Origin: Candidatus Woesearchaeota archaeon
GTDB lineage: Archaea; Nanobdellota; Nanobdellia; Woesearchaeales; JAGVYF01
Direction: 5' to 3'
NCBI GenBank assembly: GCA_041650315.1
Contig: JBAZLJ010000001.1
Location: forward strand, 5,947-69,946
Length of the DNA stretch: 64,000 nt
Shown one piece after another: positions 1-16,654 of the stretch; within the stretch, counting starts at the first letter, position 1, and each line of letters begins with the position of its first letter. Under the pieces are notes generated by a model. It was given only the letters and a program-made list of their open reading frames with translations. It was not told where the DNA came from and did not search any database. A program made the position numbers and the translations under genes.

Positions 1-3000
1 GCCAACCATTATTCAAGGTCAAGCCCGTTATAGTCTTACGGGTATATGTACCTATACCATCGCCTATAAATGCCTCTATCCTATCCGAATTTGTCCTAGT
101 AAGTGCCATACCACAATAATTTCCATTTACGCTATTTAGATTTGAAAGAATACCATAGATACCATTCATGCCCTTATCAGATTTCACCCACGCTGAATAT
201 GTAAAACTGGTGTCATTACCGAAATTCAATTTTGTACCCGGGGATACCTGGGCATACCCTATTTGTCCATTGAAATCCAATCCCCCATTATAGATTGAAT
301 TATTCGTCCAATTGGCATTGTAATTCCTTACCCCGTCATTACCACCAATTGCGTCTTTCACTGTATTTCCCGCACCTTCATCGAAGTGCCATAACGCAAC
401 TGGCGGATTAAGGACTTCGCCGTAGTTCATCATCTCAGATTCTTGTTTTATTTCCTGAGCTGATAATGTGCGGTTCCAAAATTTCATCTCGTCTAATTTA
501 CCTAAGAAAGTGTACGATGTTGTGCTGAAAGCACCAATCAATACACTCGCCCCATAACTGGTAGAATACCCCTGAGTTTCTGCAATAGATCCTACAAAGT
601 TACCATCAATATACCCATAAACCAACACATTATCGCCAGATACATTCCATGAGAAAGTATAATGATGCCATTCATTTAATTTAACTGCATCATTATTTGA
701 CAATAACGATGTTTTTTGTTGGCCAGTACTATTAGCGTAAGAAATAAACATATCGTATCCGTTAAACGAAATATAATAATTTCCGCTAACTAAACTAAAA
801 GGCATATTATGCCCACTGCCCATTGTGGAGTTTGGATTTGCCCAGAACGAGATTGTCTTATTAGGTACTGCGAAAGGAGTTGATGAACTCACTTGTATAT
901 ATGTGCCGCTTGTATTCAATAAGTCTAAACCGGATTTGATTTTTGCGGAATTATTTGCCAACAATCCTTTAGATGTTGTTGCATGATTTGAACCGGCTGA
1001 ATCGAGATAATTATTGTCGAACTTCCAATAAGCCACTAAAGAATTATCTCTCCATGCTTCCGTTCCATTTAGATACCAGGTGTAGACGGATCTATTCTGT
1101 GCGTCTGAATCTGGGTCTGAATAAGACCACATTGCGGACGGATAATTGTTGGTGTATAATGTATATGGAGTGATGTTGACGTTTGTTACTATTGGATATC
1201 TATTGGCAGTGAAGTTGCCTGAGAAGTTTCCTACATTTCTCAATGTGTCATTCGCATAGATTGTGTAATTCACTACGCCACCGAATGAGTTGTTGACTGG
1301 AACTTGGATTGACCAGATTCCATCTAATAGCGTCCCTGAAATTAATGACAGGAATCCTTGCCACAATATGTTTCCTGCAGAGGCTATCGTCTGCCAGACC
1401 ACAATCCAAACTTTGTCAACTGCAGTGTCTGTGGTGATGTTGATGTAGAACGTCGCATTATCTCCGGACAATACTGGGTTTGTATGCGTGATTAATGCGC
1501 CGGTTATACCTGTAATGTTGATTAATGTCACATTTGGCGGAGTCGCGTCAACTGTGAATGTAACCAAATCCATGTGCGTATCATTATCATGCGAACTATT
1601 TGCATATATCCTCAAAATATTCGTTCCGTTGCCCAATCCGGTTATTGTAAGATTATTAGCGCAGCCAGGGATTGTTGTATTCACACCGCCGTTTATGCTG
1701 TATTTGCAAGCGCCGATTCCTGAATAGTCCAATGCTGAGAAATTGACTGGAATACTTGTTCCGTATTTCACGTTATCCAATGGATAATAGATATTGACTG
1801 TGACTTCATCGAAGTACAAGTTAGGATTTCTATCCAAACTTATTTTCTGCGCATCTGATAATCTGCCGCCAGCGGTGTGTGTCATCTTAGGATTTGTGTA
1901 ATATGTGAATAATGCGTCGAAATCGGATATGCCGTCGCCGTTACTGTCTGTTGATTGAAGTGTAGCGTTATCAGGCAGGTTGAATATAACAAACGCCTGT
2001 TGGTACTTGTTGAATATCTGGTTGTTCCACTGGCCGTGGTTGTAGAGGACTATATCATAAATCGAATCGCTGCCGGTATCTACATCAAAGTTCGCAGCGT
2101 ATCCTACTTTTAAAGTCTGGTTGTACGGCGAGAAGAATTTGGCTTTGTCTATATCTGTTGAATTAGGCACGCTAACTTCTGTAGTTATTGATGTGCCGTT
2201 AAGGCATCCGCCCACGCCTGATTCTGGGCCCCATTCAGCAGTCGTATCATTATATAATTTCAAACATGCATAATCGAATTCGACCGGCTGGATGTAGCCG
2301 TAATAATCAGACCACCATTCGTTCATCTGCCAGTGTCTGTAATAATAGCTATTGATATTGTTGTTCGGAGTATAATTGTATTCCCAATAATAGATTGTGA
2401 ACAGATAACAGTTCCTACCAGTGTTGTTGTAGGCGCCGATACCTGCATCAGTGTTTGTGAAATTATATTCCATGAAATTAGGTATAAGTCTACCTGTGTC
2501 CCTGTTGACTCCGTTCGTGACACCGCCTGCGAATAATCCGCCCCTGTCGTATTTGGAGCCTACCATATCCGGGTCCATATCAGGAGTACCAAATGTTATG
2601 ACACTCATGCAGTCGAACACGTTACCGCCGTTCTCCATACAATAGGTCAACGCATCAGTCTGGTATGTAAGATAATCAGTATATGTTATTGTGTAATCTA
2701 TTGACTGCTTAGGACTATTGAAGTAGACATATTTTGTATCGTCCCTTCTCAAGCCAGTCCTGTTCCTTTCCAATGCGGGTTTGGTCCAGTTCAATGCGAC
2801 ATATCCGGAGTTATTGATTATGTACATGGTCTGCCATGTTGCGGGGAGATTGTCTATCCTCCTATATTGCATTGCGCTGTCCGGGTCTTTTGTCAACGTG
2901 TAATTCGTCCATGCTGTTCCGTTCCACCATCTTGCAGTGAGATTGCCGTAAATGGATAGTCCTGATTCTATCCAAACCCAATTCTCTTCCTGGTATGAAC

Positions 3001-6000
3001 CTTCTCTCATACCAGATTGATTGTAACAAGGTGTTGTGCCGATTCCGTTCGGGCAATATTCCCTGTACCTGTAATCCAAATCGCCTTCATCGAAATTTCC
3101 AACAAAGAAGTCTTGGACTGGCATTATCTCGTGAACATATACTGCGCTGTAGCCGGTGTAATTTCCTACAGCTTTGACTCTGTAGCTGTACTGTCTTCCG
3201 TAAATGACTGGAATTGTGTAACAGAATGTGCCTGTGCTTGTTTTTACTGTTACTGCAGTTTCGCTGAAATCTGAAGATAGTTCATTCCAATACTGGATTG
3301 ATACGTTCACTGGGTTGTGGCCATTTAAACTTGTTAGATTGCCGCAGACTCTTACGTTTTCTTTTGACCTATTTTCAGTGTAGTTCAAGATAACTGATGA
3401 CGGAACTACATATTCTGTTCCTAACAAGAAACTGCCTGTCGCTGTTGAGTTGCCTATTGAGCCGGACGAGAGTACTTCGTAATAATAAGTCGTGTTTGTA
3501 TTTAGATTGGTCAAAGGTATCAATGGGTGCGTAGTTATCATGTCCCAGGTCTTGTTCGTGGTGTATGTGACTGTCCAATTCATGAGATTAGGAGTATCTA
3601 CGTCCAAGAATGTGATTGAATAAGGTATCCTAGTGGCATTGATTGTGTAATTCATGTTATATGCCCCCGTAGTACAAGTCACATTCAATAAAGTAATATA
3701 ATCTGCTCCATGCACTGCTAAATCTCTCAATGATTCAACGTTGCCTGGAATGTTATAGAAACGTTCTGTGACGTTCTTGTATTCAAATGCTCTTGTGCTC
3801 TGGAAGAACCATGGGTTGGTAGCGTACTTGACCTGATTGTTAGCTATCTGGTCAACAGTCCATGTTATGTTTGTGGATGTTGCTGTCCTCCCATAACTAT
3901 CATTCACATTCGAGATTACCGGAAGATCTTGATATGGAGTCTCTTTATTGTCCATGGTATAATAAGGAGTGGCGATTGTGTAAGATACAACTGATTCGTT
4001 CGCTGCTGCTTGCGGATAGCCATAATACATCCAGAGCTTGACATCATAATCACCATCTAGACCTGATTTGTATGATTGATTGTTATCATCGAAATGATTG
4101 GATTGCACCAATATGTCCGCTCTTGATGCGAACATCCACGTTATCATTGATTCGTAGAAGTATGACGAAATATCATTGTTCTCATATACAAATGTCCAGG
4201 CCTTGCTAGTCTGGTTCATACAATAAGTGTCTGCGTAAGGTATGCTGTAGTTCTGCACTGTTTTAAATTCCAGATTAGTTCCGCCAAAGCATGCGCTCGG
4301 TATCTCGCTGTCCCAGTACCAGTTTCCTACATAGAGTCTTAATAATGATGATGTCTTTGCACCCGCTGGGATTGTGTAGTTGTACCATTGCGTGCCGAAC
4401 AATCCTGCCTGGCTAGGGATACATCTTGATGCCCAATCTGCATCGTGGCAGTAAGTCGTGTTATCATAGCTGCCCACATACATTGTTGAGTCAGGTATGG
4501 TTTGAGTGGTTGAACCGCCTGTGCCTGCGATGTTCCACTCTTTTATGTCGTATGGAAGCACATTTTGTGATTGGTAATCTGTGAATCTTATATCATTGCC
4601 ATTGGTGTAGTTCAACGTGTCGAAGTCTGGATAAGTTGACCATAGCGCAGTCCTTTGGAAATTTTCGTCTGTTAAAGATATGTTGAGTACTCCTGTTTCT
4701 GTATCTGCTGAGATTTGACTGGAGTCTATTGTTATGAGTCTCCTGTACAACCAATTGGTGAGTTGAGGATGCCAGCCAGAAGTCCTGAAATATGATTCTC
4801 CATATTCGCCTTCATAGCCAGTGACACCTTGCTGCCATCTTAATTTGTATTCTGTGTCTGGATCCAAACTTGTGAATGTACCATTATTATTCGTCACGAA
4901 CAGAACTGCTTGAAGATCAAATGCGACTGTCTGCTCGTTGAGGTTGTAGATGTATAGCGAGGTCCAGTTGCCTGCGATGGAGTTATCCCATCTGAGTAGA
5001 ACGGATGTCCTGTTGATATCCTCAAATCTGAGATTCTTTAGATTGGGTTCTTCTATTGTTATTGTGAAATTGCCTGTTCTGATTGTGTTGCCTGCCCAGT
5101 CAGTGAGGTCATAGAACCATGTGTAGACACCATTGATTAAGTTGACTAATGCGCCTATCACTCCGCTTGTAAGTCTACTGAGGTATGTCAATGTGATATT
5201 GTAGTATAGTCCTGTGCTGTTGTAGACATACAATGTAGCATTTCTCAAACCGAATGAATCTGTGAAATTTACTGACAGATTCTGTGATGGATTGCCCCAT
5301 CTACTCGCGTTTGCTGGCCCGTATAGATTGGCTGAGACATTCTGCAGGTCTATGAACAACGTTCTTCTCTCTGTGCTGTTCTCGTTGTTCGCCTGGTCTC
5401 TTGCGGAAGCGTAGTATGTGTACTGGCTGTGTTCTAATCCAGTAGTTGCGTTCTTGGATTGATTTGAGTAGAAGTACCACTGCGTGCTGTTGAATTTCTG
5501 GAGATTGGATATGTATAACTGTTGAATCTCATTGTATGATAAAGATCTATTCCACATACGGACTTCGTCGATTGATCCGTTGAAGAACCCACTTATTGAT
5601 GGAGTTACAGTACCTATCGTTAAATCCCTGCTTAAATCGATGTTTGGATTCGACCCGGCAGTAGCGTGTGGGGGTTCAGTCAAATTAATGCCATCAACAA
5701 AAATCTGAAGACTTGCTGCAATAGTGCCATATTTCACAATTGTGATGAAGTGCCATTTACCATCATGTACATCTATTATTGATTTGTTGTATACTCTTGC
5801 ATCCTGATAATTAGTAGGGAAACTCTGTGCAGTCCAGAAATATAACATCGCACCAGCACCACTACTATTTTGAGCACTTCTTAGGTACCAACCATTATCC
5901 GCTCCATCACTACGAGCTATAATATACGCGCCATTTTTGTTCGTTGTCTGATTGTATTGTTTTATCCATAATGTGACTGCAAATTGCCCCGAGCCTACAT

Positions 6001-9000: not shown

Positions 9001-12000
9001 TTACTGCCAGAATTGGAGGGATGTCGATTGAGTTCACTCTTAGGTCTGTTCTGTTGCTGTTGCCAGCTGTGTCTTTCGCATTCGCGAAGTATGTGTAGTT
9101 GCCGGATGATGTTACTTGTTGATTGACAAGGAGCGACCATTTATCTGTGGCATATTTGTTTAGATTGGTCTGGTAGAGTTGCGAGACTTCTGCGGCGGAT
9201 AAACTGCGGTTGTAGATACGGACTTCGTCGATGGTGCCGTTGAAGTAAAGTCCCTCAGTAGGAGAAGTTCTTCTCCCGATATCTAAAGTGTGATTCCCAG
9301 CTATAGTCCCAGAATGTACTTTTGTAAAATTGCCCATATAAACTCCGTCAATCCAAACTTTTTCTTCGGCCATACTCAATGTCCAAATTATATTATACCA
9401 TTTTCCCGCGTTCCAATTCCCTTCTGAGTTACATATTGTAATTCCTTCGTCATACCCTGTACTAGAGCCGTTAGAAGTATAGGTATGGACGCACCCATTT
9501 GGATAAGCATCTAACTCATATTCGGTATAATGTTTCCCGACCAATGTCGCTCTCGGGTTAATTATTTGAGTAGGTTTAAACCAAACTGAGATTGATATGT
9601 AATTACTCATATCTAAAGAAGCAGTGTCTGTAATATTGATAAAATCATTTAACCCATCGAATGAATATGCACCATTATACTTACCGGAAACATTGTATCC
9701 TGCGCCGTATATTATTCCATCATTGCCATTACCGCTCAAATCTTTTATTATACTTGCTGATTCACCCAACGCCGCTACGTTATTGAAATTGTACATTGCC
9801 ACTAAACTGCTGTTGTATAACGTCGTATTCGTTCCGTTCCAGTTCCAGATCACTTCATTGAGATTCGCTTCTGTGATGCTGATGTTGATTGGGATGACTG
9901 TGAGGTTTGTGTGCGTTGCGTTCGCGAGTGTTGGATTTGTGAAATATATCTCAGGCACTGGATTGACTGTGACTTGCCTTACTTCCGTGCCGTTCGCGTT
10001 ACCGGCAGCGTCTTTCGCGTAAGCGGAGTAGTTGAATGTGGTGATACCGTATACGCTTGTTGTATCTTCGTTCGCTTGGAATGTCCATTTGTCGGTTGCG
10101 TATTTGTTGAGGTTGGTTTGATATAATTGCGAGACTTCTGCGGCGGATAAACTTCTATTCCAAATTCGAGGCTCATCGATAGATCCTTGGAAAAATTGTG
10201 TTCCTTCCCTTGAACCAATCCTTAGATTTACAGTGTTCTTTATTGTCCCTATAAGATTATTATATTCTAACGCAATTGGTTGTTCCAAACCATCAATATA
10301 TATCTTAAATGCTGTAGCATTAACTGTGTCATTCTTAGTTACAGTTACATGATGCCAATTATTATCGTTGATTGCTTTGCCCCCTGCAGAAACATTGACA
10401 TATGCCGAAATCGCGTTAGTGGGCCAAGAATTAATTATATGAACTTTAATTGAATAAGGGCATTGAGCGGCACTTCCGCAATAATATAAATCATATCCTA
10501 TAGCGTTATTCCCGGGGTCCATCTTTGCGATTATACCTGCGCCAGCACTTGATGTTGTCTCCACCCACGCGGCCAATGTATATGACTCATTCCTTTCAAA
10601 ACTAATAGAACTAGAATTACCTGCATCAATATAATCATTGACTCCATCAAATTGTCCCGCTAAACCATACTTGCTTGTTTCATTGAATATGACTCCGGTT
10701 ACAACTCCATCATTAAGAGAATTGGATAAGTCTTTTACCACTGTTCCACTCTCCCCTAGCGCTGCTATGCTATCAAAATTATACATCAGTACAAGACTAT
10801 CATTATATATCGTCGTGTTCGTTCCGTTCCAGTCCCAGATCACTTCCCTGAGATTGGCTTCTGTTATACTGATATTAACCGGAAGGATTGTGAGGTTTGT
10901 GTGCGTTGCGTTTGCTAGTGTTGGAGCGACAAATGATAATTGCGGAACTATTGCTTGTGATGTCAACATCCTCTCAGTGCTGTTGCTGTTGGAGTCTGCG
11001 TCCAAAACGCTTGCGGAGTAGATGTAATTGGATTGGTTGAATACTTCGGTGACGGACTGGTTGATGAAGTAAGTCCATTTGTCGGTTGCGTATTTATTGA
11101 GGTTTGATGAATACAATTGCGTAACTTCTGCGGAGGATAAAACTCTATCCCATATCATCACGCTATCCAATGTATCATTAAATGCTTCATTCTTATCAAA
11201 AAGACTTATCCCATCTTGTTCCTGACCTAATACTAGGGATCCATTTAATGATAGACGTAGGTTTGAGTTGAGTAAATATGTACCCATCAAAACTCCATCT
11301 TTGTAGATAGTAGATTGATTGTCGCTCATTCTCCATGTAACGACAAAATGATGCCATTGATTATCATTCACAGTAACTCCTGAGGAATAACCATTGCCAG
11401 CCCTATACACATACAAAAAACCATTGCTACCTATAAAAATTAACCAATCATTACTATTTTTATCTGTGGCGTATGAAACTATCGCTGCACTAATATCTGT
11501 AGTTTTTATCCATAATGATGTTGTGATACTAGTGATAAAATCTGATCCTGCCTTTAATGGATTCCTTATCAAATAACTTGTTGTATCTCCGGTGAAATTC
11601 ATACCTACACCATACTTTCCTTCAGGCACTCTATATGCGCCAGTTATATTCATATCATATCCTGAGTGACTTGTGTCTATTGCTAAAGAAGAAGTCTCCC
11701 CTATAGAGCTATAATTGTCGAAATCTAATTTTAAAATAAGGCTGTCATTATACAAAGTCGTATTCGTTCCGTTCCAGCTCCAAGTCAATTGTTCTAAGTT
11801 CGCTTCTGTTATGCTGATGTTGATTGGGATGACAGTGAGATTCGATACGGATGCGTTCGGGAATGATGACGGCGCGAAAGAGATTGCAGGGATGATTGTG
11901 TCAACTGTCAATGATCTTATTTCAGTACTGCCTTCAACATTGTATGTATTCTTAGCGCTGCCGTAATAAGTATATGAACCATCATCTAATCTAGTAGTTG

Positions 12001-15000
12001 CGTTCTTGGATTGGTTCACGTAGAAGTACCATTGAGATGAGTTGAATTTTTGGAGATTGGACATGTAAAGCATAGATATTTCATCAGCTGAAAGAGAACG
12101 ATTGTATATTTTAAAATCGTCCATTGTACCGTTTGCGGGACCGTCCCAATCTGCACCATAATCGGTGTTAAGACCTATTCTGAGAGGAGTTACTGTATGA
12201 TACCGATGGCCATAGTATGGTGAAGACATAGCTAGTTTGCCATCAACATACAAACTAACTACCTTATTGACGTCATCAACTGTGCCTGCAAGATGCACCC
12301 ATTTATTCGGCACTAATGCATTAACACTATAAATCTGAGTCATGCCCGCCGTATCATTATTAATCCTAAAATAGATGTTTTTATTGTTATCAATATACAT
12401 CAGTGAAATATAATCTGAGAACATTGTTTGAAGATTATGCGGGACTACCGGACTAGGATCACTATATGCATAGTACCAAAGCGAATAAGTCACGCTTGAC
12501 TCGCTGATGTTAGTTGATAATGAGTCAAGAACCTCAATAATACTGCCATTGGCATTGAAACCGCGACCCGAACCGAATTTACCCGTAGTCACTGCGGGGC
12601 AAGTTGTGCATGATACACCTATATTATTAGAGCCAGTATCGTTGATTACGGATCCGCTCTCGCTCAATCCCGCGAGATTATCAAAGTTAAGCATTGTCAC
12701 TAAATCATTACTATATATAGTATAATTTGTATTATTCCAGCTGTGAATATATCGAGACAATCCCGAAGTAGAAATACTTATGTTGATTGGAACGCTTGTG
12801 CTTCCAGTCACTTGTTCGTCCGAGTATGTTGATGGGATGAATTGCATTGATGCTGCTCCCGCTAATGTAGTGAATGATATGTTCGAGCCCCATATAATAC
12901 CGCCAGAACTGTCCGAGCAATTGATTCCCCAACTATAAGTAGATCCTGTGCCGAGGAATATTGATGTGAAATTGAACGGCACTGTGCCAACTACTGCTTT
13001 TGTTTCTACTTTCGACCATGAACCTGCCCAGTTACCATATAGTGTGCAGTAATCTGCGCCGGATTGATTTGCCGAGAAGGTATATGTAAAACGATCGTTT
13101 GTGAAGTTGCGCTGGTCTGTGATGTTCATCATGAGACCGCCAAACGAATATACAATTGTGCCGACCGAACCTGCTGATGCAGCAGTAGTACATGCTGTGC
13201 CAGAAGTACCTGCTGCACCTAAGGCAACTGATTGAGTAGAGCTAGTGTTATACAATGATGAATATGCGATATATATTCTGCCTCCCCCGCCACCGCCACC
13301 GCTACAAGCACGTGTTGAACTAGTACATGATCCTCCGTCACCGCCAGAAGTATCGATTGACGCAGAAGAAATATTTACAAATCTGGCTCTTAATATTACG
13401 TGACCTCCTGAACCGCCACCGCCACATCCTGTCCCTGTTACTCCTGAACCTAAAGCAGTATCTCCATAAGCATAAATTGCTCCATGTACATCTATAATCC
13501 CATGATTTGCGTTTATGAATACTCCGCCCCCTCCATTAGCACCAGTAGTACTACCTGCAGCGCCCGCACCACCGCCACCGCCAGATCCTATGAAAAATGG
13601 CAGTGTATTAGATGCACCATAACTAGCTCCCCCTAAACCTATTTGGCAAGTAGAATAAGATTCACCGCCTGCGCCGCCTATTCCGCCAAAACCGCCGCCG
13701 CCACCGCCTGCACCCCTAGTCAAGAAACTTGCATAAACCTGTTGAGCGCCGCCGCCTGCTCCACCATTTGCAACATAAGAAGCTGCTCCCGCAGATCTAT
13801 CAATTCCATCTGTCCCTTGATAAGCTTGACAATTGGATGTAGTACATGTAGCACCACCTAATGCGCCAGAACCATTCGCGTAGATTATCGCGCCAGATGC
13901 CATTGTGAAGTTGCCATATGAACCAAGAGATATGTTAATGTGACCCGCAGTGGCGTTGCTTGCGATGAATGTACATACGTGAAGTCTTGCTGTTGAAGTT
14001 AATTCAATTGAGTCGTATTGTTTTACCTCACCGCACATTTTGTACCAACCAGTTATCCTCAATGGATTAGCGAAGTTATTTGCGTAACCAAATAAATCGC
14101 CGAATTGGAACTCTAAGTGGTGCGCACCTCTGCTCCAGACTTGCGATGTCTCTGTGCTGTTGACTGCGCAGGAATAGTTTTCAACGAATATCTCGCTGGT
14201 TTCATTACGCCATGTGAAGTTAACGAATTCTTCACCGCATTTCAGTTCGAGGAAGTTCAAGTCAGGCGTTTCACTCAAGTAATTCAATATTGTTCCATTG
14301 ATTGCACGGATTGTCAGATTCGCAGTTCCGATAGTTCCGAAGTTCACTGTCCAATTGCCGTTGACTGCTGGATAAGATTGTACGTTGAAGATTGTTAATT
14401 CTATTTCGTAAGTTTCGTTGGATAAGTGCGGCACAATCCAACTGATTGATTCAGTCATCAAATCTGAATCGGAATCTAGATAGTTAATATCGCCAGTGAA
14501 CGGCTCTCTTACGCCGTCCACTAGATGATATAACTTAATTTGGTGGTTATACAAGGTTGAAATCTCATGCGGCAACATTACGGTTGCCAAGATGTCTGTG
14601 TAATGTGTCTCTGAAGAAATTGTAACTTGCTTCTTATTTTCAGAAATAATCTGTTCATGAGCAATAGGCGCTTCTGTCTGATATTCTATATAATAGTCTG
14701 ATACGTTGCTTTCTAGTTCTAATTCGATTTCTTTATCTTTCTGCTTGAACTTGTGTTGTGAAACAACGGCTGATGCAGAATCTGGTAACTGGACTTTTAC
14801 TTTTGCATCTTTTACTTTATTAGAATCAATCTTAATGTGTTTGGTCCAACTGACTGGTTTGCCTACTTCAACGAAGCCTTGTGCATCTGTTTCAGTTATT
14901 CCGTCTGTTACGTTTGATGCTTGTTCGGTTGGTACTTGGTCAGTCTCATCAATAATATCGCCATACACTTCATCGACAACGACATAATAACCAGATGATA

Positions 15001-15400
15001 ATTCATTACTATTTCCGGTTACCAGCAATGTGAAATCGCCGGATGCTGAATATGTTCTTGAAACGCCGTAATGCACTTCTGAAGAATAAAGGTCTACTGT
15101 GTCAATTACTATATTATTTTCCAACACTTCAACTATACCGAAATCGTCACGGGTCTGGAACACGACTGTGACGTTGCCGTTTACATTGTAGCTCAATGTA
15201 GAATCTGGTGTGTTGGAGAACAAGGCAGAACCACCAATGTATTCATCACTATCAATACCCATCCAAACGCCTTGCTGGATAACATTACCTGTGATGGATG
15301 GCGGACTAGCTACCAAAGCCCATAGCATGAACACTAATGAAAGTACCAGGATCTCGTTGAATATCCCATTCTTCTCATTCCTAACGTACTTTGGTCTCAT
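1..15400 (-). CDS. Giant secreted or membrane-anchored surface protein, partial (3' end beyond the left edge; at least 5,133 codons in the window). N-terminal signal/anchor, Gly-rich solenoid-like region, at least 8 LamG (Laminin_G_3/concanavalin-like) modules, Ig/FN3-like spacers, DUF2341-like segment
   Basis: Hand translation of the minus strand, in the frame whose codon-top coordinates are 1 mod 3, is stop-free from ATG 15400-15398 down to position 2. An alternative in-frame ATG lies at 15418 with a TGA just upstream. The ORF track would have listed any complete ORF here, so the frame must be open to the window edge. The N-terminus reads MRPKYVRNEKNGIFNEILVLSLVFMLWALVASPP. The LamG hallmark F(N/Q)G(T/S)IDE(V/P)R(I/M)(W/Y)NRSLSxxE(V/I) was read at about 480, 5560, 7300, 8085, 9215, 10165, 11150 and 12105. 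For example, 9181-9250 reverse-complemented gives LYFNGTIDEVRIYNRSLSAAEVS. A purine-rich GAAAGAGGA lies just upstream of 15400. Confidence 0.85.
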   Translation of the reverse strand, partial: MRPKYVRNEKNGIFNEILVLSLVFMLWALVASPPSITGNVIQQGVWMGIDSDEYIGGSALFSNTPDSTLSYNVNGNVTVVFQTRDDFGIVEVLENNIVIDTVDLYSSEVHYGVSRTYSASGDFTLLVTGNSNELSSGYYVVVDEVYGDIIDETDQVPTEQASNVTDGITETDAQGFVEVGKPVSWTKHIKIDSNKVKDAKVKVQLPDSASAVVSQHKFKQKDKEIELELESNVSDYYIEYQTEAPIAHEQIISENKKQVTISSETHYTDILATVMLPHEISTLYNHQIKLYHLVDGVREPFTGDINYLDSDSDLMTESISWIVPHLSNETYEIELTIFNVQSYPAVNGNWTVNFGTIGTANLTIRAINGTILNYLSETPDLNFLELKCGEEFVNFTWRNETSEIFVENYSCAVNSTETSQVWSRGAHHLEFQFGDLFGYANNFANPLRITGWYKMCGEVKQYDSIELTSTARLHVCTFIASNATAGHINISLGSYGNFTMASGAIIYANGSGALGGATCTTSNCQAYQGTDGIDRSAGAASYVANGGAGGGAQQVYASFLTRGAGGGGGGFGGIGGAGGESYSTCQIGLGGASYGASNTLPFFIGSGGGGGAGAAGSTTGANGGGGVFINANHGIIDVHGAIYAYGDTALGSGVTGTGCGGGGSGGHVILRARFVNISSASIDTSGGDGGSCTSSTRACSGGGGGGGRIYIAYSSLYNTSSTQSVALGAAGTSGTACTTAASAGSVGTIVYSFGGLMMNITDQRNFTNDRFTYTFSANQSGADYCTLYGNWAGSWSKVETKAVVGTVPFNFTSIFLGTGSTYSWGINCSDSSGGIIWGSNISFTTLAGAASMQFIPSTYSDEQVTGSTSVPINISISTSGLSRYIHSWNNTNYTIYSNDLVTMLNFDNLAGLSESGSVINDTGSNNIGVSCTTCPAVTTGKFGSGRGFNANGSIIEVLDSLSTNISESSVTYSLWYYAYSDPSPVVPHNLQTMFSDYISLMYIDNNKNIYFRINNDTAGMTQIYSVNALVPNKWVHLAGTVDDVNKVVSLYVDGKLAMSSPYYGHRYHTVTPLRIGLNTDYGADWDGPANGTMDDFKIYNRSLSADEISMLYMSNLQKFNSSQWYFYVNQSKNATTRLDDGSYTYYGSAKNTYNVEGSTEIRSLTVDTIIPAISFAPSSFPNASVSNLTVIPINISITEANLEQLTWSWNGTNTTLYNDSLILKLDFDNYSSIGETSSLAIDTSHSGYDMNITGAYRVPEGKYGVGMNFTGDTTSYLIRNPLKAGSDFITSITTSLWIKTTDISAAIVSYATDKNSNDWLIFIGSNGFLYVYRAGNGYSSGVTVNDNQWHHFVVTWRMSDNQSTIYKDGVLMGTYLLNSNLRLSLNGSLVLGQEQDGISLFDKNEAFNDTLDSVMIWDRVLSSAEVTQLYSSNLNKYATDKWTYFINQSVTEVFNQSNYIYSASVLDADSNSNSTERMLTSQAIVPQLSFVAPTLANATHTNLTILPVNISITEANLREVIWDWNGTNTTIYNDSLVLMYNFDSIAALGESGTVVKDLSNSLNDGVVTGVIFNETSKYGLAGQFDGVNDYIDAGNSSSISFERNESYTLAAWVETTSSAGAGIIAKMDPGNNAIGYDLYYCGSAAQCPYSIKVHIINSWPTNAISAYVNVSAGGKAINDNNWHHVTVTKNDTVNATAFKIYIDGLEQPIALEYNNLIGTIKNTVNLRIGSREGTQFFQGSIDEPRIWNRSLSAAEVSQLYQTNLNKYATDKWTFQANEDTTSVYGITTFNYSAYAKDAAGNANGTEVRQVTVNPVPEIYFTNPTLANATHTNLTVIPINISITEANLNEVIWNWNGTNTTLYNSSLVAMYNFNNVAALGESASIIKDLSGNGNDGIIYGAGYNVSGKYNGAYSFDGLNDFINITDTASLDMSNYISISVWFKPTQIINPRATLVGKHYTEYELDAYPNGCVHTYTSNGSSTGYDEGITICNSEGNWNAGKWYNIIWTLSMAEEKVWIDGVYMGNFTKVHSGTIAGNHTLDIGRRTSPTEGLYFNGTIDEVRIYNRSLSAAEVSQLYQTNLNKYATDKWSLLVNQQVTSSGNYTYFANAKDTAGNSNRTDLRVNSIDIPPILAVISPLTGNNSYNIGETNTFFVNITDNSVRNITIYHDLLGVWQLGTTMALTGAGIVTSVIDTTLSLYHMLVDGFFHWAALVFDSEGSKTWTDNQTFSGWDLGRYNYTHLTATNVSLEDNDSLQELPNNKANDGYVNMTGNVGLWHFNGNALDSSGSGYNGVAVNATNQTGKFNGGFNFTVPGSVITFSGINTSTQYSISVWKLFPLPTTTAGWRTIASTNGGTYHHILINSSDYLGCFNGAFYSSGYVTSSLTGWHHIATTASGSSTLFYVDGSYVGTSASRINNQMLSSIGNYVTGGNQQCGELDEFAVWNRSLPATEIATIYNRQKSTYIDQGYYESRIFEASTTPHWKNLTLVTSYNYSGQELPNSKGVDIASLGANMTGNVLLMHFNGNALDSSGTGNNGITRNGVANISGKFGGAYLFDGVNDYVNASNSASLDQSTALTVGAWVYPRFGTTNRNYAPVIRKPGNEWSLEFSSSVTSSSTISFWTNNGTWQSSASTTSLNDNQWYFVVGNYNGTHALIYVNGLREGTPTKQGTLQNGANEVVIGGDSSLNRYWNGTIDEVAIWNRSLSATEIWNIYRRGLTKLNITARSCDDALCEGESYSVSTTNTTYLDLRPLANNTYFQYKAYFEGDGNVTPELSKVTIGYDVLFNIQSQVNYTNDRTTYIFSATTTTAGTCTLYGDMPYSYVIDQATAFSCENPASGDCSGGTDQNWVTGQSSAAMTTGIVFENFTIPSGTTSAVWNYSIWCADAVNPGNGCDELIMYWNYSSNNWENLTSKRIPEGFDLSNVVIPSAGLTGSLFRVKTYIYSITGGPDYTAYTEGAVNWTTSGVFRQIETKTGTAINFTSLTFPTDGSTYIWNVNCSDSTGLIAEGSNISFTVLDNIPPLLSFTSSSVTNATITTTRWADINISVTEQNMTQFIWNWNNTNTTIYNSSLLFMYNFENVTELGESSTIVKDTSNKGNNAVVSGATWTPNGRYGGAYSFDGVNDYINITNNANLNVGSGQFAVTLWIKQYNQTTNKNGAYIIARSDGADNGWYLRSAQNSSGAGAMLYFWTAQSFPTNYQDARVYNKSIIDVHDGKWHFITIVKYGTIAASLQIFVDGINLTEPPHATAGSNPNIDLSRDLTIGTVTPSISGFFNGSIDEVRMWNRSLSYNEIQQLYISNLQKFNSTQWYFYSNQSKNATTGLEHSQYTYYASARDQANNENSTERRTLFIDLQNVSANLYGPANASRWGNPSQNLSVNFTDSFGLRNATLYVYNSTGLYYNITLTYLSRLTSGVIGALVNLINGVYTWFYDLTDWAGNTIRTGNFTITIEEPNLKNLRFEDINRTSVLLRWDNSIAGNWTSLYIYNLNEQTVAFDLQAVLFVTNNNGTFTSLDPDTEYKLRWQQGVTGYEGEYGESYFRTSGWHPQLTNWLYRRLITIDSSQISADTETGVLNISLTDENFQRTALWSTYPDFDTLNYTNGNDIRFTDYQSQNVLPYDIKEWNIAGTGGSTTQTIPDSTMYVGSYDNTTYCHDADWASRCIPSQAGLFGTQWYNYTIPAGAKTSSLLRLYVGNWYWDSEIPSACFGGTNLEFKTVQNYSIPYADTYCMNQTSKAWTFVYENNDISSYFYESMITWMFASRADILVQSNHFDDNNQSYKSGLDGDYDVKLWMYYGYPQAAANESVVSYTIATPYYTMDNKETPYQDLPVISNVNDSYGRTATSTNITWTVDQIANNQVKYATNPWFFQSTRAFEYKNVTERFYNIPGNVESLRDLAVHGADYITLLNVTCTTGAYNMNYTINATRIPYSITFLDVDTPNLMNWTVTYTTNKTWDMITTHPLIPLTNLNTNTTYYYEVLSSGSIGNSTATGSFLLGTEYVVPSSVILNYTENRSKENVRVCGNLTSLNGHNPVNVSIQYWNELSSDFSETAVTVKTSTGTFCYTIPVIYGRQYSYRVKAVGNYTGYSAVYVHEIMPVQDFFVGNFDEGDLDYRYREYCPNGIGTTPCYNQSGMREGSYQEENWVWIESGLSIYGNLTARWWNGTAWTNYTLTKDPDSAMQYRRIDNLPATWQTMYIINNSGYVALNWTKPALERNRTGLRRDDTKYVYFNSPKQSIDYTITYTDYLTYQTDALTYCMENGGNVFDCMSVITFGTPDMDPDMVGSKYDRGGLFAGGVTNGVNRDTGRLIPNFMEYNFTNTDAGIGAYNNTGRNCYLFTIYYWEYNYTPNNNINSYYYRHWQMNEWWSDYYGYIQPVEFDYACLKLYNDTTAEWGPESGVGGCLNGTSITTEVSVPNSTDIDKAKFFSPYNQTLKVGYAANFDVDTGSDSIYDIVLYNHGQWNNQIFNKYQQAFVIFNLPDNATLQSTDSNGDGISDFDALFTYYTNPKMTHTAGGRLSDAQKISLDRNPNLYFDEVTVNIYYPLDNVKYGTSIPVNFSALDYSGIGACKYSINGGVNTTIPGCANNLTITGLGNGTNILRIYANSSHDNDTHMDLVTFTVDATPPNVTLINITGITGALITHTNPVLSGDNATFYINITTDTAVDKVWIVVWQTIASAGNILWQGFLSLISGTLLDGIWSIQVPVNNSFGGVVNYTIYANDTLRNVGNFSGNFTANRYPIVTNVNITPYTLYTNNYPSAMWSYSDPDSDAQNRSVYTWYLNGTEAWRDNSLVAYWKFDNNYLDSAGSNHATTSKGLLANNSAKIKSGLDLLNTSGTYIQVSSSTPFAVPNKTISFWANPNSTMGSGHNMPFSLVSGNYYISFNGYDMFISYANSTGQQKTSLLSNNDAVKLNEWHHYTFSWNVSGDNVLVYGYIDGNFVGSIAETQGYSTSYGASVLIGAFSTTSYTFLGKLDEMKFWNRTLSAQEIKQESEMMNYGEVLNPPVALWHFDEGAGNTVKDAIGGNDGVRNYNANWTNNSIYNGGLDFNGQIGYAQVSPGTKLNFGNDTSFTYSAWVKSDKGMNGIYGILSNLNSVNGNYCGMALTRTNSDRIEAFIGDGIGTYTRKTITGLTLNNGW
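5400..12800 (-). repeat. Intragenic tandem modules of about 1.0-1.1 kb (LamG plus Ig-like unit) inside the giant gene
   Basis: Plus-strand shadow ORFs at 9624, 10638 and 11715 (and 12507) encode near-identical peptides, e.g. LYNVVFVPFQFQITSLRFASVMLMLIGMTVRFVCVAFASVG versus LYIVVFVPFQSQITSLRLASVILILTGRIVRFVCVAFASVG. Their starts are offset by 1,014 and 1,077 bp. On the coding strand the block PTLANATHTNLT(V/I)(I/L)PINISITEANL..(V/I)W.WNGTNTT(L/I)YN recurs. Confidence 0.75.
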
Positions 15401-15869
15401 TATCCTCTTTCCCTGCATTCAATTTCTTCTTAGCTCTGGAATAAACTGTCCAGACTGTTCTGTCGTTACGGCCGAGCATATCGCCTATCTCATGGAACGA
15501 GAATCCGCGTTTTTCACGGAGATAGAAAACAATAGCTTCCAAGACTGCGCAACGGCGGTCTAGAAGCACGCTGATTGGCACGAAAATTTCTGTAGAAATA
15601 GTTTGGGTTTTGGGTCTAGATTCGCGCTTTTTCTGGACACGGGAATAAACTGTCCATATTGTTCTCTCGTCCCTATTGGTTAAGACGGCAATATCGTGAT
15701 AATTATGGTTGAAATTCTGTTTAAGGTATTCAACAAGTATCTCAAATACGCTAAGTGATCTGTCTTGGAATATTGAAACTGGAATTTCTAGATTGAAATC
15801 AGATTTTTTAGTATCAGAACTAGCATTTTCTATAGATTCTACTGAATTATCTCCCCTTTTTTGACCCAT
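15381..15869 (-). CDS. Small DNA-binding protein with two tandem sigma-70-region-4 / HTH_10(Bat)-like helix-turn-helix repeats; putative regulator of the giant surface-protein gene
   Basis: Internal duplication: IPVSIFQDRSLSVFEILVEYLKQN..YHDIAVLTNRDERTIWTVYSRVQKK and VPISVLLDRRCAVLEAIVFYLREKRGFSFHEIGDMLGRNDRTVWTVYSRAKKKL. The stop at 15381 overlaps the giant ORF start at 15400 by 20 nt. A paralogue lies at 40496-40978. Confidence 0.7.
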   Translation of the reverse strand: MGQKRGDNSVESIENASSDTKKSDFNLEIPVSIFQDRSLSVFEILVEYLKQNFNHNYHDIAVLTNRDERTIWTVYSRVQKKRESRPKTQTISTEIFVPISVLLDRRCAVLEAIVFYLREKRGFSFHEIGDMLGRNDRTVWTVYSRAKKKLNAGKEDNETKVR

Positions 15870-15894
15870 TATATGTCTAAACCCAAAATAACAT

Positions 15895-16130
15895 TACATT
15901 GTAAGTACTTTTTTGTATATAAAGGTTTCTTTTTATATATTATATATGAAATAACACTACATTGTAAGTATTATAAATTTTTGGCCAGAAAGTGCTCATC
16001 CGGATAGTGCCTAACTATGATCTTTGAAATTTTTGTTTTTGCTACTGCTCATTACTTACAATGTAAGGTAAAGTATATATAGTTTTTGGTTTATTGTAAT
16101 AAATTGAAGTAAATAATACTTACAATGTAG
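15895..16130. promoter_or_regulatory. Divergent promoter region with four exact copies of TACATTGTAAGTA (two direct, two inverted); candidate operator array with TATA-like boxes
   Basis: TACATTGTAAGTA at 15895-15907 and 15958-15970; its reverse complement TACTTACAATGTA at 16053-16065 and 16118-16130. Each site contains the palindrome TACA-T-TGTA. Spacings are 63 and 65 bp. TATA-like tatataaagg at about 15915 and cttataaaaa at about 16156. Confidence 0.6.
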
Positions 16131-16185
16131 GTAAAATTTAAGATGTAACAAAAAGCTTATAAAAAACAGATGATTTACACCTAAT

Positions 16186-16641: not shown

Positions 16642-16654
16642 ATTGTTTGCTTTA

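What the first reader, a model, noticed from the sequence alone, without database searches (positions are those of the whole stretch)
1..15400. A 15.4-kb gene the ORF track cannot show: a giant surface protein of at least 5,133 aa running off the window
The track lists only ORFs under 120 aa across 1-15380, so the region looks non-coding. The minus-strand frame from ATG 15400 translates without a stop down to position 2. It reads as a coherent protein: a signal/anchor (MRPKYVRNEKNGIFNEILVLSLVFMLWALVA), a Gly-rich solenoid-like segment, at least 8 LamG modules, Ig/FN3-like spacers, and a DUF2341-like stretch (WLYRRLITIDSSQIS...NDIRFTDYQSQNVLPYDIKEWN, about 4560-4790). It is packed with N-x-S/T sequons (NVTVV, NISLG, NFTM, NGTNTT and many more), as expected for a heavily N-glycosylated archaeal cell-surface protein. 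In small-genome episymbiotic archaea, proteins of this type are prime candidates for host attachment. One gene takes a quarter of this window.
Basis: partly seen in the sequence, partly recalled or inferred. Interest (0 to 1): 0.8.

Follow-up and report, generated by a model that had tools for sequence, protein, structure and literature searches.

The report
Giant lectin-rich archaeal surface protein gene
The first quarter of this window is one real, uninterrupted gene for a giant (at least 7,126 amino acids) sugar-coated cell-surface protein of a tiny-genome Woesearchaeota-type (DPANN) archaeon, most likely a sticky fibre for attaching to other cells; proteins of this kind are already known in these archaea.

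Summary
The minus-strand frame from ATG 15400 (or ATG 15418) to position 2 holds 5,133 codons and no stop. The other five frames hold 235-382 stops.

- **Full extent:** on its source contig (1,007,146 bp) the gene is called at 7,126 aa and still runs off the contig end.
- **Real and constrained:** dN/dS is 0.065 against an 86%-identical metagenomic fragment. A second assembly is 100% identical over 12.2 kb.
- **Architecture:** one N-terminal hydrophobic signal or anchor, then a Gly-rich stretch and 8 complete plus 1 cut LamG/pentraxin-like lectin domains separated by Ig/FN3-like spacers.
- **Conserved core:** a roughly 1,100-aa cassette follows (FN3, split DUF2341-like domain, FN3s, Trp-rich domain, Ca-motif). 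About 35 other large unannotated proteins share it; three were checked for context, and two showed archaeal markers.
- **Sequons:** they are 11 times denser than in the neighbouring genes (z = 13 against shuffles).
- **Organism:** the DNA polymerase D sequence places it with Woesearchaeota/Nanoarchaeota.

Host attachment itself remains an inference, and the C-terminus was never seen. The gene is a new member of a known kind, the giant lectin-rich DPANN surface proteins. It is not demonstrably a SPEARE protein. The unannotated cassette is the newest element.

The parts
2..15400 (-). Visible part (5,133 codons) of the giant gene. An alternative start at ATG 15418 would add 6 codons. The gene continues beyond window position 1 for at least 1,987 more codons.
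   Evidence: No stop in this frame; 235-382 stops in the other frames. The gene call on ENA contig k141_3083672 is 7,126 aa and ends exactly at the contig end. dN/dS is 0.065 against L007.
15302..15400 (-). N-terminal signal peptide or membrane anchor (MRPKYVRNEKNGIFNEILVLSLVFMLWALVA|SPP).
   Evidence: It is the only segment with Kyte-Doolittle mean above 1.6 in the 5,133 aa (residues 11-37). No signal-peptide predictor was available, so cleavage is inferred.
13961..15301 (-). N-terminal region (residues 34-480) with no recognisable domain.
   Evidence: No Pfam or NCBIfam hit, no PDB sequence hit, and no match among the 151 fetched relatives.
13121..13903 (-). Gly-rich stretch (residues about 500-760), possibly a beta-solenoid.
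   Evidence: 30% Gly per 100-residue block at residues 501-700, 17% at 701-800. There is a weak NCBIfam match to the AgmC N-terminal domain (E 1.3e-9, 37.5 bits against a cut-off of 275). No Pfam Gly_rich_2 hit.
9011..12853 (-). Four tandem copies of a roughly 310-aa super-repeat (Ig-like spacer plus LamG). A fifth copy lies at residues about 3005-3350.
   Evidence: Self-BLAST of 200-aa windows gives 30-54% identity between units that start near residues 850, 1172, 1479, 1787 and 3005.
12065..12580 (-). LamG 1 (residues 941-1112).
   Evidence: Pfam Laminin_G_3 E 1.2e-23; local HMM.
11111..11617 (-). LamG 2, pentraxin-like (residues 1262-1430).
   Evidence: Pfam Laminin_G_3 and Pentaxin, the latter at 65 bits. 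PDB neuronal pentraxin E 1e-12. Local HMM.
10121..10678 (-). LamG 3 (residues 1575-1760).
   Evidence: Pfam Laminin_G_3 plus Sialidase N-terminal lectin at 26.1 bits; local HMM.
9173..9691 (-). LamG 4 (residues 1904-2076).
   Evidence: Pfam Laminin_G_3 E 1.5e-39; local HMM.
8036..8479 (-). LamG 5 (residues 2308-2455).
   Evidence: Second Laminin_G_3 stretch in piece 5; local HMM E 2e-16.
7265..7771 (-). LamG 6 (residues 2544-2712).
   Evidence: Pfam Laminin_G_3 E 5.6e-41; local HMM.
5513..6088 (-). LamG 7 (residues 3105-3296).
   Evidence: Pfam Laminin_G_3 E 2.3e-16 and Toxin_R_bind_N at 33 bits; local HMM.
437..943 (-). LamG 8 (residues 4820-4988).
   Evidence: Pfam Laminin_G_3 E 4.1e-20; local HMM.
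2..307 (-). LamG 9, cut by the window edge (residues 5032-5133+).
   Evidence: Second Laminin_G_3 stretch in piece 10; local HMM.
1766..5083 (-). Conserved roughly 1,100-aa cassette (residues 3440-4545) shared with about 35 other large proteins. It is the family-defining core.
   Evidence: The exhaustive profile search found P0002-P0043 matching profile positions about 13-1158. Identity is 37-49% over about 1,100-1,300 aa.
4817..5038 (-). FN3 domain that opens the cassette (residues 3455-3528).
   Evidence: Pfam fn3 E 3.6e-5, 24.3 bits against a cut-off of 25.
4001..4774 (-). Split DUF2341-like beta-sandwich (residues 3543-3800). A roughly 120-aa beta domain (residues 3626-3745, window 4166-4525) is inserted after the DIRF...EWN motif.
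   Evidence: hhalign against canonical DUF2341 modules gives 91% probability, E 9.8e-7. The AF2 model has pLDDT 89.5 and pTM 0.81. The top BFVD hit is a DUF2341 protein, E 4.6e-4. The top PDB hits are legume lectins, E 6.5e-4, with low TM-scores. The Pfam DUF2341 HMM does not hit.
3116..3973 (-). Three FN3/Ig-like domains (residues 3810-4095).
   Evidence: Conserved across the family. Weak Pur_ac_phosph_N (an FN3-like domain) hit at E 0.034. The FN3 assignment is an inference from sequence motifs.
1961..3118 (-). Trp/Tyr-rich all-beta domain of unknown fold (residues 4095-4480).
   Evidence: No Pfam or NCBIfam hit. The AF2 model has pLDDT 70 and pTM 0.60. No PDB fold match at E<=1e-3.
1811..1963 (-). 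Ca-binding-type TSP3-like motif (FNLPDNATLQSTDSNGDGISDFDALFTYYTNPK).
   Evidence: Profile positions 1083-1125 hit thousands of proteins that carry many tandem copies of this motif. TSP3_bac is recorded for family members.
15381..15869 (-). Upstream 162-aa ORF with two tandem HTH-like repeats. It overlaps the giant gene's start by 20 nt (38 nt if the start is ATG 15418) and may be a co-transcribed regulator.
   Evidence: The Pfam HTH_23 and Sigma70_r4_2 hits are only faint. It is not conserved upstream of relatives.

Best explanation
This is the 5' three-quarters (or less) of a single functional gene of a Woesearchaeota-type DPANN archaeon. It encodes a giant modular cell-surface glycoprotein of at least 7,126 aa.

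Proposed mechanism (steps 1-5 are inferred; only the sequence features listed after them were observed):
1. The N-terminal hydrophobic signal takes the protein through the Sec system.
2. The ectodomain is heavily N-glycosylated at its 211+ sequons.
3. The protein stays attached to the cell. Attachment could be through the uncleaved N-terminal anchor or through a C-terminal transmembrane helix, as in 13 of 34 family members. The giant's own C-terminus was not seen.
4. Ig/FN3-like spacers and a Gly-rich segment extend it as a long fibre.
5. The fibre displays at least 9 LamG/pentraxin-type lectin domains and a conserved cassette (split DUF2341-like lectin-fold domain, FN3s, Trp-rich domain, Ca2+ motif). 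These bind glycans or glycoproteins on a partner cell's envelope and hold the small archaeon on its host or in a consortium.

Shown here: the open frame, the domain content, the purifying selection, the sequon excess, the family and the taxonomy.
For: Gene reality:
- 5,133 codons with no stop, against 235-382 stops in the other frames.
- An independent Logan assembly is 100% identical over window 5381-17606.
- dN/dS is 0.065 over 307 codons against a JGI fragment.

Size: the public gene call is 7,126 aa and ends exactly at the end of the 1,007,146-bp contig.

Export and surface location:
- There is a single N-terminal hydrophobic segment.
- The composition is Lys-poor and Thr/Asn/Ser-rich, unlike the neighbouring genes.
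- Sequon density is 11 times that of the neighbours, with z = 13 against shuffles.

Lectin content:
- Pfam Laminin_G_3 scores 316 and 227 bits, with 9 copies.
- Pfam Pentaxin scores 85.6 bits, and PDB neuronal pentraxin matches at E 1e-12.
- The DUF2341-like domain is supported by hhalign (91%) and by fold matches to a DUF2341 protein and to legume lectins.

Family:
- About 35 cluster representatives of 1.4-5.6 kaa share the cassette.
- Most have N-terminal signals, 13 of 34 have C-terminal transmembrane anchors, and all have high sequon density.
- Of three relatives whose genomic context was examined, two show archaeal markers: P0003 and P0004. P0004 also lies beside archaeal pilin genes and a cohesin protein. 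P0008's context is not diagnostic.

Taxonomy: the PolD large subunit is 56-60% identical to Candidatus Woesearchaeota/Nanoarchaeota proteins. Archaeal RNase P RNA, Cdc6, MCM and PolD genes lie in the window.

Literature: LamG-rich and giant surface proteins are proposed host-interaction factors in DPANN (PMC10266531, PMC5498576). DUF2341 proteins are proposed pilus-associated adhesins in archaea (PMC4858521) and occur in proteins over 4,000 aa in Patescibacteria (PMC11809585).
Against: - No binding, localisation, expression or glycosylation data exist.
- The last 1,987 or more residues, including any anchor or enzymatic domain, were not seen.
- About a third of the visible protein has no assignable function. 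This covers residues 34-480, the Gly-rich stretch, the Trp-rich domain and segments near residues 2720-3000.
- LamG (Laminin_G_3) domains also occur in secreted glycoside hydrolases and other non-adhesive proteins, so lectin content does not prove cell-cell adhesion.
- No host is known for this organism, and an episymbiotic lifestyle is only inferred from its lineage and genome size.
- No pilin or secretion genes lie in the 48 kb visible on one side of the gene.
Confidence: 0.6

Rival explanations
1. It is a structural envelope or coat protein. On this view it is a giant glycoprotein forming part of the cell's own S-layer-like coat or glycocalyx, for protection, spacing or phage decoy, with no specific role in host attachment.
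For: - It has an N-terminal signal, high sequon density, repetitive Ig/LamG modules and no enzymatic domain.
- One PDB sequence hit for a LamG copy is an 'S-layer domain-containing protein' (4qvs, E 7e-6).
- Flanking domains vary widely between family members. That pattern fits fast-evolving surface coats.
Against: - A single gene of more than 7,000 aa is an unlikely lattice-forming S-layer subunit.
- Arrays of lectin domains are typical of binding proteins.
- The conserved cassette is under strong purifying selection (dN/dS 0.065), which suggests a specific function rather than bulk coating.
Confidence: 0.15
2. It is a polymer-capturing or polymer-degrading scaffold, analogous to a cellulosome. 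On this view the LamG and CBM-like domains bind environmental polysaccharide, and the Trp-rich domain or the unseen C-terminus is catalytic, so the protein serves nutrient acquisition rather than cell-cell adhesion.
For: - Laminin_G_3 belongs to the ConA-like lectin/glucanase clan. There are weak hits to the sialidase N-terminal lectin and trans-sialidase C-terminal domains.
- The best weak fold matches of the Trp-rich domain are CBM21, CBM48 and CBM56 sandwiches and GH64 (E 0.03-0.2).
- Family member P0001 ends in dockerin-like repeats, and a cohesin protein lies near P0004.
- A PDB hit to an extracellular arabinanase has E 2e-7.
Against: - No glycoside hydrolase, lyase, esterase or peptidase family is detected in the 5,133 aa by Pfam or NCBIfam.
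- No fold match to the Trp-rich domain is significant.
- The giant itself shows no dockerin or cohesin in its visible part.
Confidence: 0.12
3. It is a SPEARE-type giant protein, as in Nanohaloarchaeota. On this view an adhesive ectodomain is coupled to a C-terminal VirB4/TraG-like ATPase (or protease) that acts in effector delivery or host invasion.
For: - Its size class (at least 7,126 aa), N-terminal signal, Ig-like and lectin modules and DPANN origin resemble the SPEARE-type proteins SVXNc_0300 and BNXNv_0298 (PMC10266531).
- At least 1,987 C-terminal residues were not seen and could hold such a domain.
Against: - No P-loop ATPase, WD40/PQQ beta-propeller or serine protease domain is found in the first 5,133 aa.
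- None of the complete family members whose sequences were read shows a recognised ATPase domain in the precomputed or scanned Pfam hits.
- No SPEARE sequence was available for direct comparison.
Confidence: 0.08
4. It is an artefact. On this view an assembly chimera or collapsed repeat creates an artificially long frame, or the gene is decaying.
For: The gene is internally repetitive, and the contig breaks inside it. Both are typical of assembly trouble in repeats.
Against: - A stop-free run of 5,133 codons has a chance probability of about 5e-146.
- Two assemblies agree base for base over 12.2 kb.
- The repeats are only 30-54% identical at the protein level, too divergent to collapse.
- dN/dS is 0.065.
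- Homologues of 2-5.6 kaa have the same domain order.
Confidence: 0.03

Closest known systems
Giant 'SPEARE' surface proteins of Nanohaloarchaeota (Ca. Nanohaloarchaeum antarcticus; SVXNc_0300, 9,409 aa; BNXNv_0298, 8,880 aa; PMC10266531)
   Same: Both come from DPANN archaea with genomes of about 1 Mb. In both, one gene takes about 2-3% of the genome. Both have an N-terminal Sec-type signal, a giant ectodomain of Ig-like and lectin-type modules, and a presumed role in host interaction.
   Different: The visible 5,133 aa contain no WD40/PQQ propeller, protease or VirB4/TraG-like ATPase domain. The composition is non-halophilic (8.7% Asp+Glu, calculated). The protein is dominated by LamG and carries the FN3/DUF2341-like/Trp-rich cassette, which the paper read here does not describe for SPEARE proteins. 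Direct sequence comparison was not possible.
LamG (concanavalin A-like) surface proteins expanded in DPANN genomes (Mia14 'ARMAN', PMC5498576; nanohaloarchaeal SVXNc_0801-0831, PMC10266531)
   Same: They share multiple Laminin_G_3-type jelly-roll domains on secreted or membrane-bound proteins that are proposed to recognise host glycoproteins.
   Different: The nanohaloarchaeal proteins carry up to five LamG domains in far smaller proteins. Here there are at least 9 LamG domains in a protein of more than 7,000 aa, combined with a conserved non-LamG cassette.
DUF2341 (MJ1470-type) large proteins linked to archaeal type IV pili (arCOG03508, PMC4858521) and DUF2341-bearing proteins over 4,000 aa in Patescibacteria (PMC11809585)
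   Same: Both have a DUF2341-like beta-sandwich next to LamG/FN3 modules in very large exported proteins of prokaryotes, including ultrasmall symbionts, and both are proposed adhesins. Family member P0004 lies next to archaeal Pilin_N genes.
   Different: The DUF2341-like domain here is split by a roughly 120-aa insertion and is missed by the Pfam model. No pilin or type IV pilus genes are visible near the giant gene in this window.
Metazoan pentraxins (neuronal pentraxin 1/2, PTX3, CRP, SAP)
   Same: LamG copy 2 matches the pentraxin domain by sequence (Pfam 65-86 bits; PDB E 1e-12). Both have the same lectin jelly-roll fold.
   Different: The match reflects clan-level similarity (LamG and pentraxin overlap on the same residues). 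There is no evidence of pentameric assembly or of the pentraxin Ca2+ sites.

Membership tests
Laminin_G_3 / concanavalin A-like lectin-glucanase superfamily (Pfam PF13385) | A match to the family HMM above the curated gathering score (27.6 bits). | tested here: met
   316.1 bits (5 stretches) and 226.6 bits (4 stretches) in the two halves. Individual copies score 60-140 bits. There are 9 copies.
Laminin_G_3 / concanavalin A-like lectin-glucanase superfamily (Pfam PF13385) | Carbohydrate or protein ligand binding by the jelly-roll domain. | not testable with these tools
   This needs glycan arrays or pull-downs with recombinant domains.
Pentaxin (Pfam PF00354) | A match above the gathering score (25 bits). 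| tested here: met
   85.6 bits for the whole half and 65.4 bits for copy 2. PDB neuronal pentraxin matches at E 1e-12. The match overlaps the LamG hits, so it is probably clan-level similarity.
Pentaxin (Pfam PF00354) | Cyclic pentameric assembly and a conserved Ca2+-dependent ligand site. | not tested
   No residue-level comparison was made.
DUF2341 (Pfam PF10102) | A match to the Pfam HMM above the gathering score (23.4 bits). | tested here: not met
   No hit at E<=1 in residues 3251-3900. Canonical copies in relatives P0002 and P0035 score 58-68 bits.
DUF2341 (Pfam PF10102) | Remote homology or a shared fold with canonical DUF2341 modules. | tested here: inconclusive
   hhalign gives 91% probability and E 9.8e-7 for the N-terminal half; the C-terminal half (MYYG motif) reaches only 12%. 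The top BFVD fold hit is a DUF2341 protein at E 4.6e-4, but with TM-score about 0.2. The domain is interrupted by a roughly 120-aa insertion.
Fibronectin type III (Pfam PF00041) | A match above the gathering score (25 bits). | tested here: inconclusive
   24.3 bits, E 3.6e-5, at residues 3455-3528, which is just under the cut-off. The other spacers give only weak Big_13, Big_7 and Pur_ac_phosph_N hits.
SPEARE-type giant proteins of Nanohaloarchaeota | Giant size (over 5,000 aa) with an N-terminal signal in a DPANN genome. | tested here: met
   At least 7,126 aa, an N-terminal hydrophobic segment and Woesearchaeota-type PolD.
SPEARE-type giant proteins of Nanohaloarchaeota | A VirB4/TraG-like ATPase domain (originally read as a restriction endonuclease), with a protease or beta-propeller domain. 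| tested here: not met
   None is present in residues 1-5133. The unseen C-terminal 1,987 or more residues could not be tested.
Archaeal N-glycosylated surface proteins | An excess of N-x-S/T sequons on an exported protein. | tested here: met
   211 sequons, 4.1 per 100 aa against 0.36 in the neighbouring genes; shuffle z = 13.
Archaeal N-glycosylated surface proteins | Glycans demonstrated on the protein, and AglB oligosaccharyltransferase in the genome. | not tested
   No AglB/STT3 was seen among the window ORFs scanned. The rest of the genome was not available.
Gly_rich_2 (PF21722) / AgmC N-terminal glycine-rich domain (NF047640) | A match above the curated cut-off. | tested here: not met
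   No Pfam hit. NCBIfam AgmC_N scores 37.5 bits against a cut-off of 275. Relatives P0001, P0012, P0016 and P0019 have clearer Gly-rich modules.
Type IV pilus-associated DUF2341 adhesins of archaea (arCOG03508) | Location in a locus that encodes pilins or type IV pilus machinery. | tested here: not met
   No pilin or type IV pilus genes were seen among the ORFs examined in window 15.4-64 kb. The downstream side was not seen. Relative P0004 does have a Pilin_N neighbour.
New cassette family (P0001-P0043) | A collinear FN3, split DUF2341-like, FN3 x3, Trp-rich domain and TSP3-like motif over about 1,100 aa. | tested here: met
   The giant's residues 3440-4545 align end to end with about 25 full cassettes at 37-49% identity.

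The most novel reading that the evidence does not exclude
The roughly 1,100-aa cassette may be a previously undescribed functional core of a family of giant surface proteins; the members whose context was informative are archaeal. Its order is FN3, DUF2341-like sandwich split by an inserted beta domain, three FN3s, a Trp-rich domain with no solved structural relative, and a Ca2+ motif. Variable lectin, propeller and solenoid arrays are built around it. On this reading it is the actual host-recognition or membrane-engaging device, or a new enzyme, and the LamG arrays are accessory.
Probability: 0.25. Interest if true: 0.7.

Novelty: new member of a known kind. Interest (0 to 1): 0.45.

Why it matters
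DPANN archaea are thought to live attached to other cells, yet the molecules that make the contact are almost unknown outside Nanohaloarchaeota and Nanoarchaeum. Woesearchaeota largely lack cultured host-symbiont systems.

This gene spends at least 2.1% of a contig of about 1 Mb on one exported, lectin-studded and strongly constrained protein. That makes it a concrete candidate for the attachment apparatus.

The conserved cassette gives a sequence handle for finding the same device in other uncultured archaea, about 35 representatives so far. It also defines domains to express for binding and structural work.

The case also shows that ORF tracks which drop edge-open frames can hide the largest gene in a genome.

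Tried and rejected
- **Word-index searches.** They were insensitive for this composition. The central 1,461 aa found only P0001, and the A2 profile found only 5 JGI 'hypothetical proteins'. The exhaustive profile search was what revealed the family.
- **Finding the C-terminus.**
  - The genome-contig scan found only unrelated bacterial LamG proteins, so the genome is not among the GTDB representatives.
  - The metagenome-contig scan found only a distant protein sharing Ig-like modules, L011.
  - The Logan contig L002 is identical to the window but shorter.
  - The 10-kb flank limit stops L001 at window position 5381.
  - The stop codon and any C-terminal anchor therefore remain unseen.
- **Sequence searches of other regions.** The PDB sequence search of residues 1-800 gave nothing. 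NCBIfam gave nothing for most pieces.
- **Fold search of the Trp-rich domain.** No match reached E<=1e-3, and the model is only of medium confidence (pLDDT 70).
- **Sample accessions.** A paper search for ERZ27247363, SRR8542065 and SRR15425353 returned nothing, so the habitat is unknown.
- **Artefact or pseudogene.** Considered and rejected on the evidence.
- **SPEARE membership.** Considered and not adopted, because no ATPase or protease domain is present in the visible part.


Full report
**Observation.**
The minus-strand frame that starts at ATG 15400 runs to window position 2 as 5,133 codons with no stop. The other five frames of the same 15.4 kb carry 235-382 stops, and none stays open for more than 139 codons. 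From base composition, the probability of 5,133 stop-free codons is about 5e-146. An in-frame stop lies 7 codons upstream. A second ATG at 15418 would add six residues and is the start used by the public gene call. ATG 15400 has the better GAGG-type ribosome-binding site. The ORF is missing from ORF lists only because frames that run off an end are not listed.

**Full extent and reality of the gene.**
- The neighbouring 162-aa ORF was located on ENA assembly ERZ27247363, contig k141_3083672 (1,007,146 bp). There the giant gene is called at 7,126 aa.
- Arithmetic on the coordinates shows that this call ends exactly at the last base of the contig. The gene is therefore still truncated and holds at least 1,987 codons beyond the window.
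- A Logan assembly of run SRR8542065 is 100% identical over window 5381-17606.
- A 935-bp JGI contig (L007) carries an orthologous fragment that is 86% identical in DNA and 92% identical in protein. Its dS is 0.77, dN is 0.050 and dN/dS is 0.065. This shows strong purifying selection in this frame.
- The gene is somewhat richer in G+C (41.4%) than the rest of the window (37.4%).

**Organism.**
The window carries archaeal RNase P RNA and genes for Cdc6, PolD DP1 and DP2, IleRS, GyrA, MCM, FEN1 and Trm5. The DP2 protein's closest named relatives, at 56-60% identity, are all from Candidatus Woesearchaeota, Nanoarchaeota or Nanoarchaeia. Together with a contig of about 1.0 Mb, this supports a small-genome DPANN archaeon. 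The genome is not among the GTDB species representatives searched, and no paper mentions the sample accessions.

**Anatomy.** Residues are numbered from ATG 15400.
- **Residues 1-33:** a basic N-terminus followed by the only hydrophobic segment in the visible protein. It is a Sec-type signal or an anchor.
- **Residues 34-480:** no recognisable domain.
- **Residues 500-760:** a Gly-rich stretch, 30% Gly per 100-residue block at 501-700. It has only a weak AgmC-N-like match.
- **Residues 850-2130, and again 3005-3350:** a roughly 310-aa super-repeat of an Ig-like spacer plus a LamG domain.
- **LamG copies:** nine Laminin_G_3 domains in total, eight complete and one cut by the window edge. Some also match the Pentaxin, sialidase N-terminal lectin, trans-sialidase C-terminal and clostridial neurotoxin receptor-binding models. 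All of these are lectin jelly-rolls. The best solved relatives by sequence are neuronal pentraxins (E 1e-12).
- **Enzymes:** no enzymatic, ATPase or protease family is detected anywhere.
- **Composition and sequons:** the protein is Thr/Asn/Ser/Gly-rich and Lys-poor (2.5% Lys, against 10% in the 47 other ORFs). It has 211 N-x-S/T sequons, or 4.1 per 100 aa, against 0.36 in those ORFs. Shuffles of its own composition give 98.8 +/- 8.5, so z = 13.

**The conserved cassette.**
- Residues 3440-4545 are the only part with close full-length relatives.
- A word-index search found one relative, P0001. It is 2,274 aa long and 38% identical over 1,168 aa, with an N-terminal Gly_rich_2 domain and a dockerin-like C-terminus.
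- A profile of the two sequences was searched exhaustively against 1.84 billion representative proteins. It found about 35 proteins of 1.4-5.6 kaa that carry the whole cassette or its second half. They are 37-49% identical to the giant over 1,100-1,300 aa.
- The remaining thousands of hits match only the TSP3-like Ca2+ motif or the FN3 units.
- The cassette order is:
  1. FN3 (Pfam 24.3 bits).
  2. A DUF2341-like domain.
  3. Three FN3-like domains.
  4. A Trp/Tyr-rich domain of about 385 aa.
  5. The motif FNLPDNATLQ..DSDGDG..D..LF.YYTNP.

**The DUF2341-like domain.**
- The Pfam DUF2341 model does not hit it.
- Canonical DUF2341 modules occur elsewhere in relatives (P0002 and P0035, 58-68 bits).
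- A profile-profile comparison of those modules with the cassette region gives 91% probability (E 9.8e-7) for the W..YRRLITI...DIRF...L.Y.I..W half.
- The ...W.YYG half follows only after a roughly 120-aa inserted beta domain.
- An AlphaFold2 model of residues 3530-3815, built on 22 sequences, is confident (pLDDT 89.5, pTM 0.81).
- Its only BFVD match at E<=1e-3 is a DUF2341 protein of Cafeteria roenbergensis virus. Its five PDB matches at E<=1e-3 are all legume lectins or lectin-like proteins.
- The TM-scores are low (about 0.2), so this is supportive rather than conclusive.

**The Trp-rich domain.**
Its model is of medium confidence (pLDDT 70, pTM 0.60). It has no PDB match at E<=1e-3, only small CBM-like sandwiches at E 0.03-0.2.

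**Family properties.**
- Of 34 members inspected, most begin with a hydrophobic signal.
- Thirteen end in a hydrophobic helix, often followed by a basic tail.
- All have 1.9-6.8 sequons per 100 aa.
- Flanking modules vary freely: LamG, FG-GAP, beta-propellers, right-handed beta-helix, Gly-rich and canonical DUF2341 modules.
- Of the three relatives whose genomic context was examined, two show archaeal markers:
  - P0003 sits next to eRF1, OapB/OapC and ribosomal proteins L1 and L10.
  - P0004 lies directly downstream of a cluster of small ORFs that includes an archaeal Pilin_N protein, and 8 kb from a cohesin protein.
  - P0008's neighbours include deoxyhypusine synthase and ribonucleotide reductase, which are not diagnostic.
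- No source gives any member a name other than 'hypothetical protein'.

**Interpretation.**
- The best-supported reading is an exported, heavily N-glycosylated, cell-attached fibre. It displays many lectin-fold domains and serves to bind glycans or glycoproteins on another cell.
- This agrees with how the literature treats LamG-rich and giant surface proteins in DPANN (PMC10266531, PMC5498576).
- It also agrees with how DUF2341-bearing giant proteins are viewed in archaeal type IV pilus loci and in Patescibacteria (PMC4858521, PMC11809585).
- Shown here: the frame, the domains, the constraint, the sequon excess, the family and the lineage.
- Inferred: export, glycosylation, anchoring, fibre geometry and above all ligand and host binding.
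- The rivals are a purely structural coat protein, a polymer-binding or polymer-degrading scaffold (hinted at by CBM-like fold matches and by the dockerin and cohesin in relatives), and a SPEARE-type secretion device whose ATPase would lie in the unseen C-terminus. None is excluded, but none has positive evidence in the visible sequence.
- An assembly artefact or pseudogene is effectively excluded.

**Comparison and novelty.**
- Giant surface proteins (8,553-9,409 aa SPEARE proteins) and LamG expansions are established features of DPANN genomes. The finding is therefore a new member of a known kind, not a new kind.
- It is not shown to be a SPEARE protein, because it has no ATPase, protease or propeller in the first 5,133 aa.
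- The newest element is the roughly 1,100-aa cassette family. It is uncovered by Pfam apart from a borderline FN3, and its Trp-rich domain has no solved structural relative.
- The main gap is the missing C-terminus. Two collection scans and the contig look-ups could not reach it.

Noticed in passing
window 15381-15869 (-): A 162-aa ORF holds two tandem HTH-like repeats (..RDERTIWTVYSRVQKK.. and ..RNDRTVWTVYSRAKKK..), with only faint HTH_23 and Sigma70_r4_2 hits. Its 3' end overlaps the giant gene's start by 20-38 nt, so it may be a co-transcribed regulator. It is not conserved upstream of relatives P0001, P0003 or P0004.
   Followed up: partly
window 53063-53148 (-): Rfam finds a tRNA of 86 nt (56 bits) that ARAGORN does not report. 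It may be an intron-containing archaeal tRNA.
   Followed up: no
window 50699-51002 (+): Archaeal RNase P RNA (RF00373, 97.4 bits, full length). This fixes the window as archaeal.
   Followed up: yes
window 46770-49325 (+): A full-length DNA gyrase subunit A (DNA_topoisoIV plus six GyrA C-terminal blades) is present in this DPANN-type archaeon.
   Followed up: no
window 16954-17805 (-): A KilA-N domain protein, typical of viruses and mobile elements, lies 1.1 kb from the giant gene's start.
   Followed up: no
window 1-15400 versus 15401-64000: The giant gene has 41.4% G+C against 37.4% for the rest of the window. Its amino-acid composition is very different (Lys 2.5% against 10%).
   Followed up: partly
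L009/L010 7266-9431 and 28080-28736; P0001 C-terminus: Cassette-family member P0004 sits directly downstream of a run of small ORFs that includes an archaeal Pilin_N protein and a TrmB regulator. It also lies near a cohesin-domain protein. Member P0001 ends in dockerin-like repeats. Some members may therefore be pilus-associated or held by cohesin-dockerin pairs.
   Followed up: partly
window 36244-37572 (-) and 39208-40545 (-): Two ORFs of about 440 aa have no Pfam hit at E<=1e-4.
   Followed up: no
giant residues 3626-3745 (window 4166-4525); also in P0012, P0014 and P0016: The roughly 120-aa beta domain inserted in the DUF2341-like module carries the motifs HDxDW...YNYTIPxGAK...YFYESMxTW. 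Domains with similar motifs (..DGDWNT...YVNYTKP...YEEAMYWN) recur as separate modules elsewhere in several family members. This may be an undescribed domain type.
   Followed up: no
window 43292-45217 (+): A 641-aa ORF matches a known family only in its C-terminal 100 residues (AP_endonuc_2, a xylose isomerase-like TIM barrel). The first 480 residues are unassigned.
   Followed up: no
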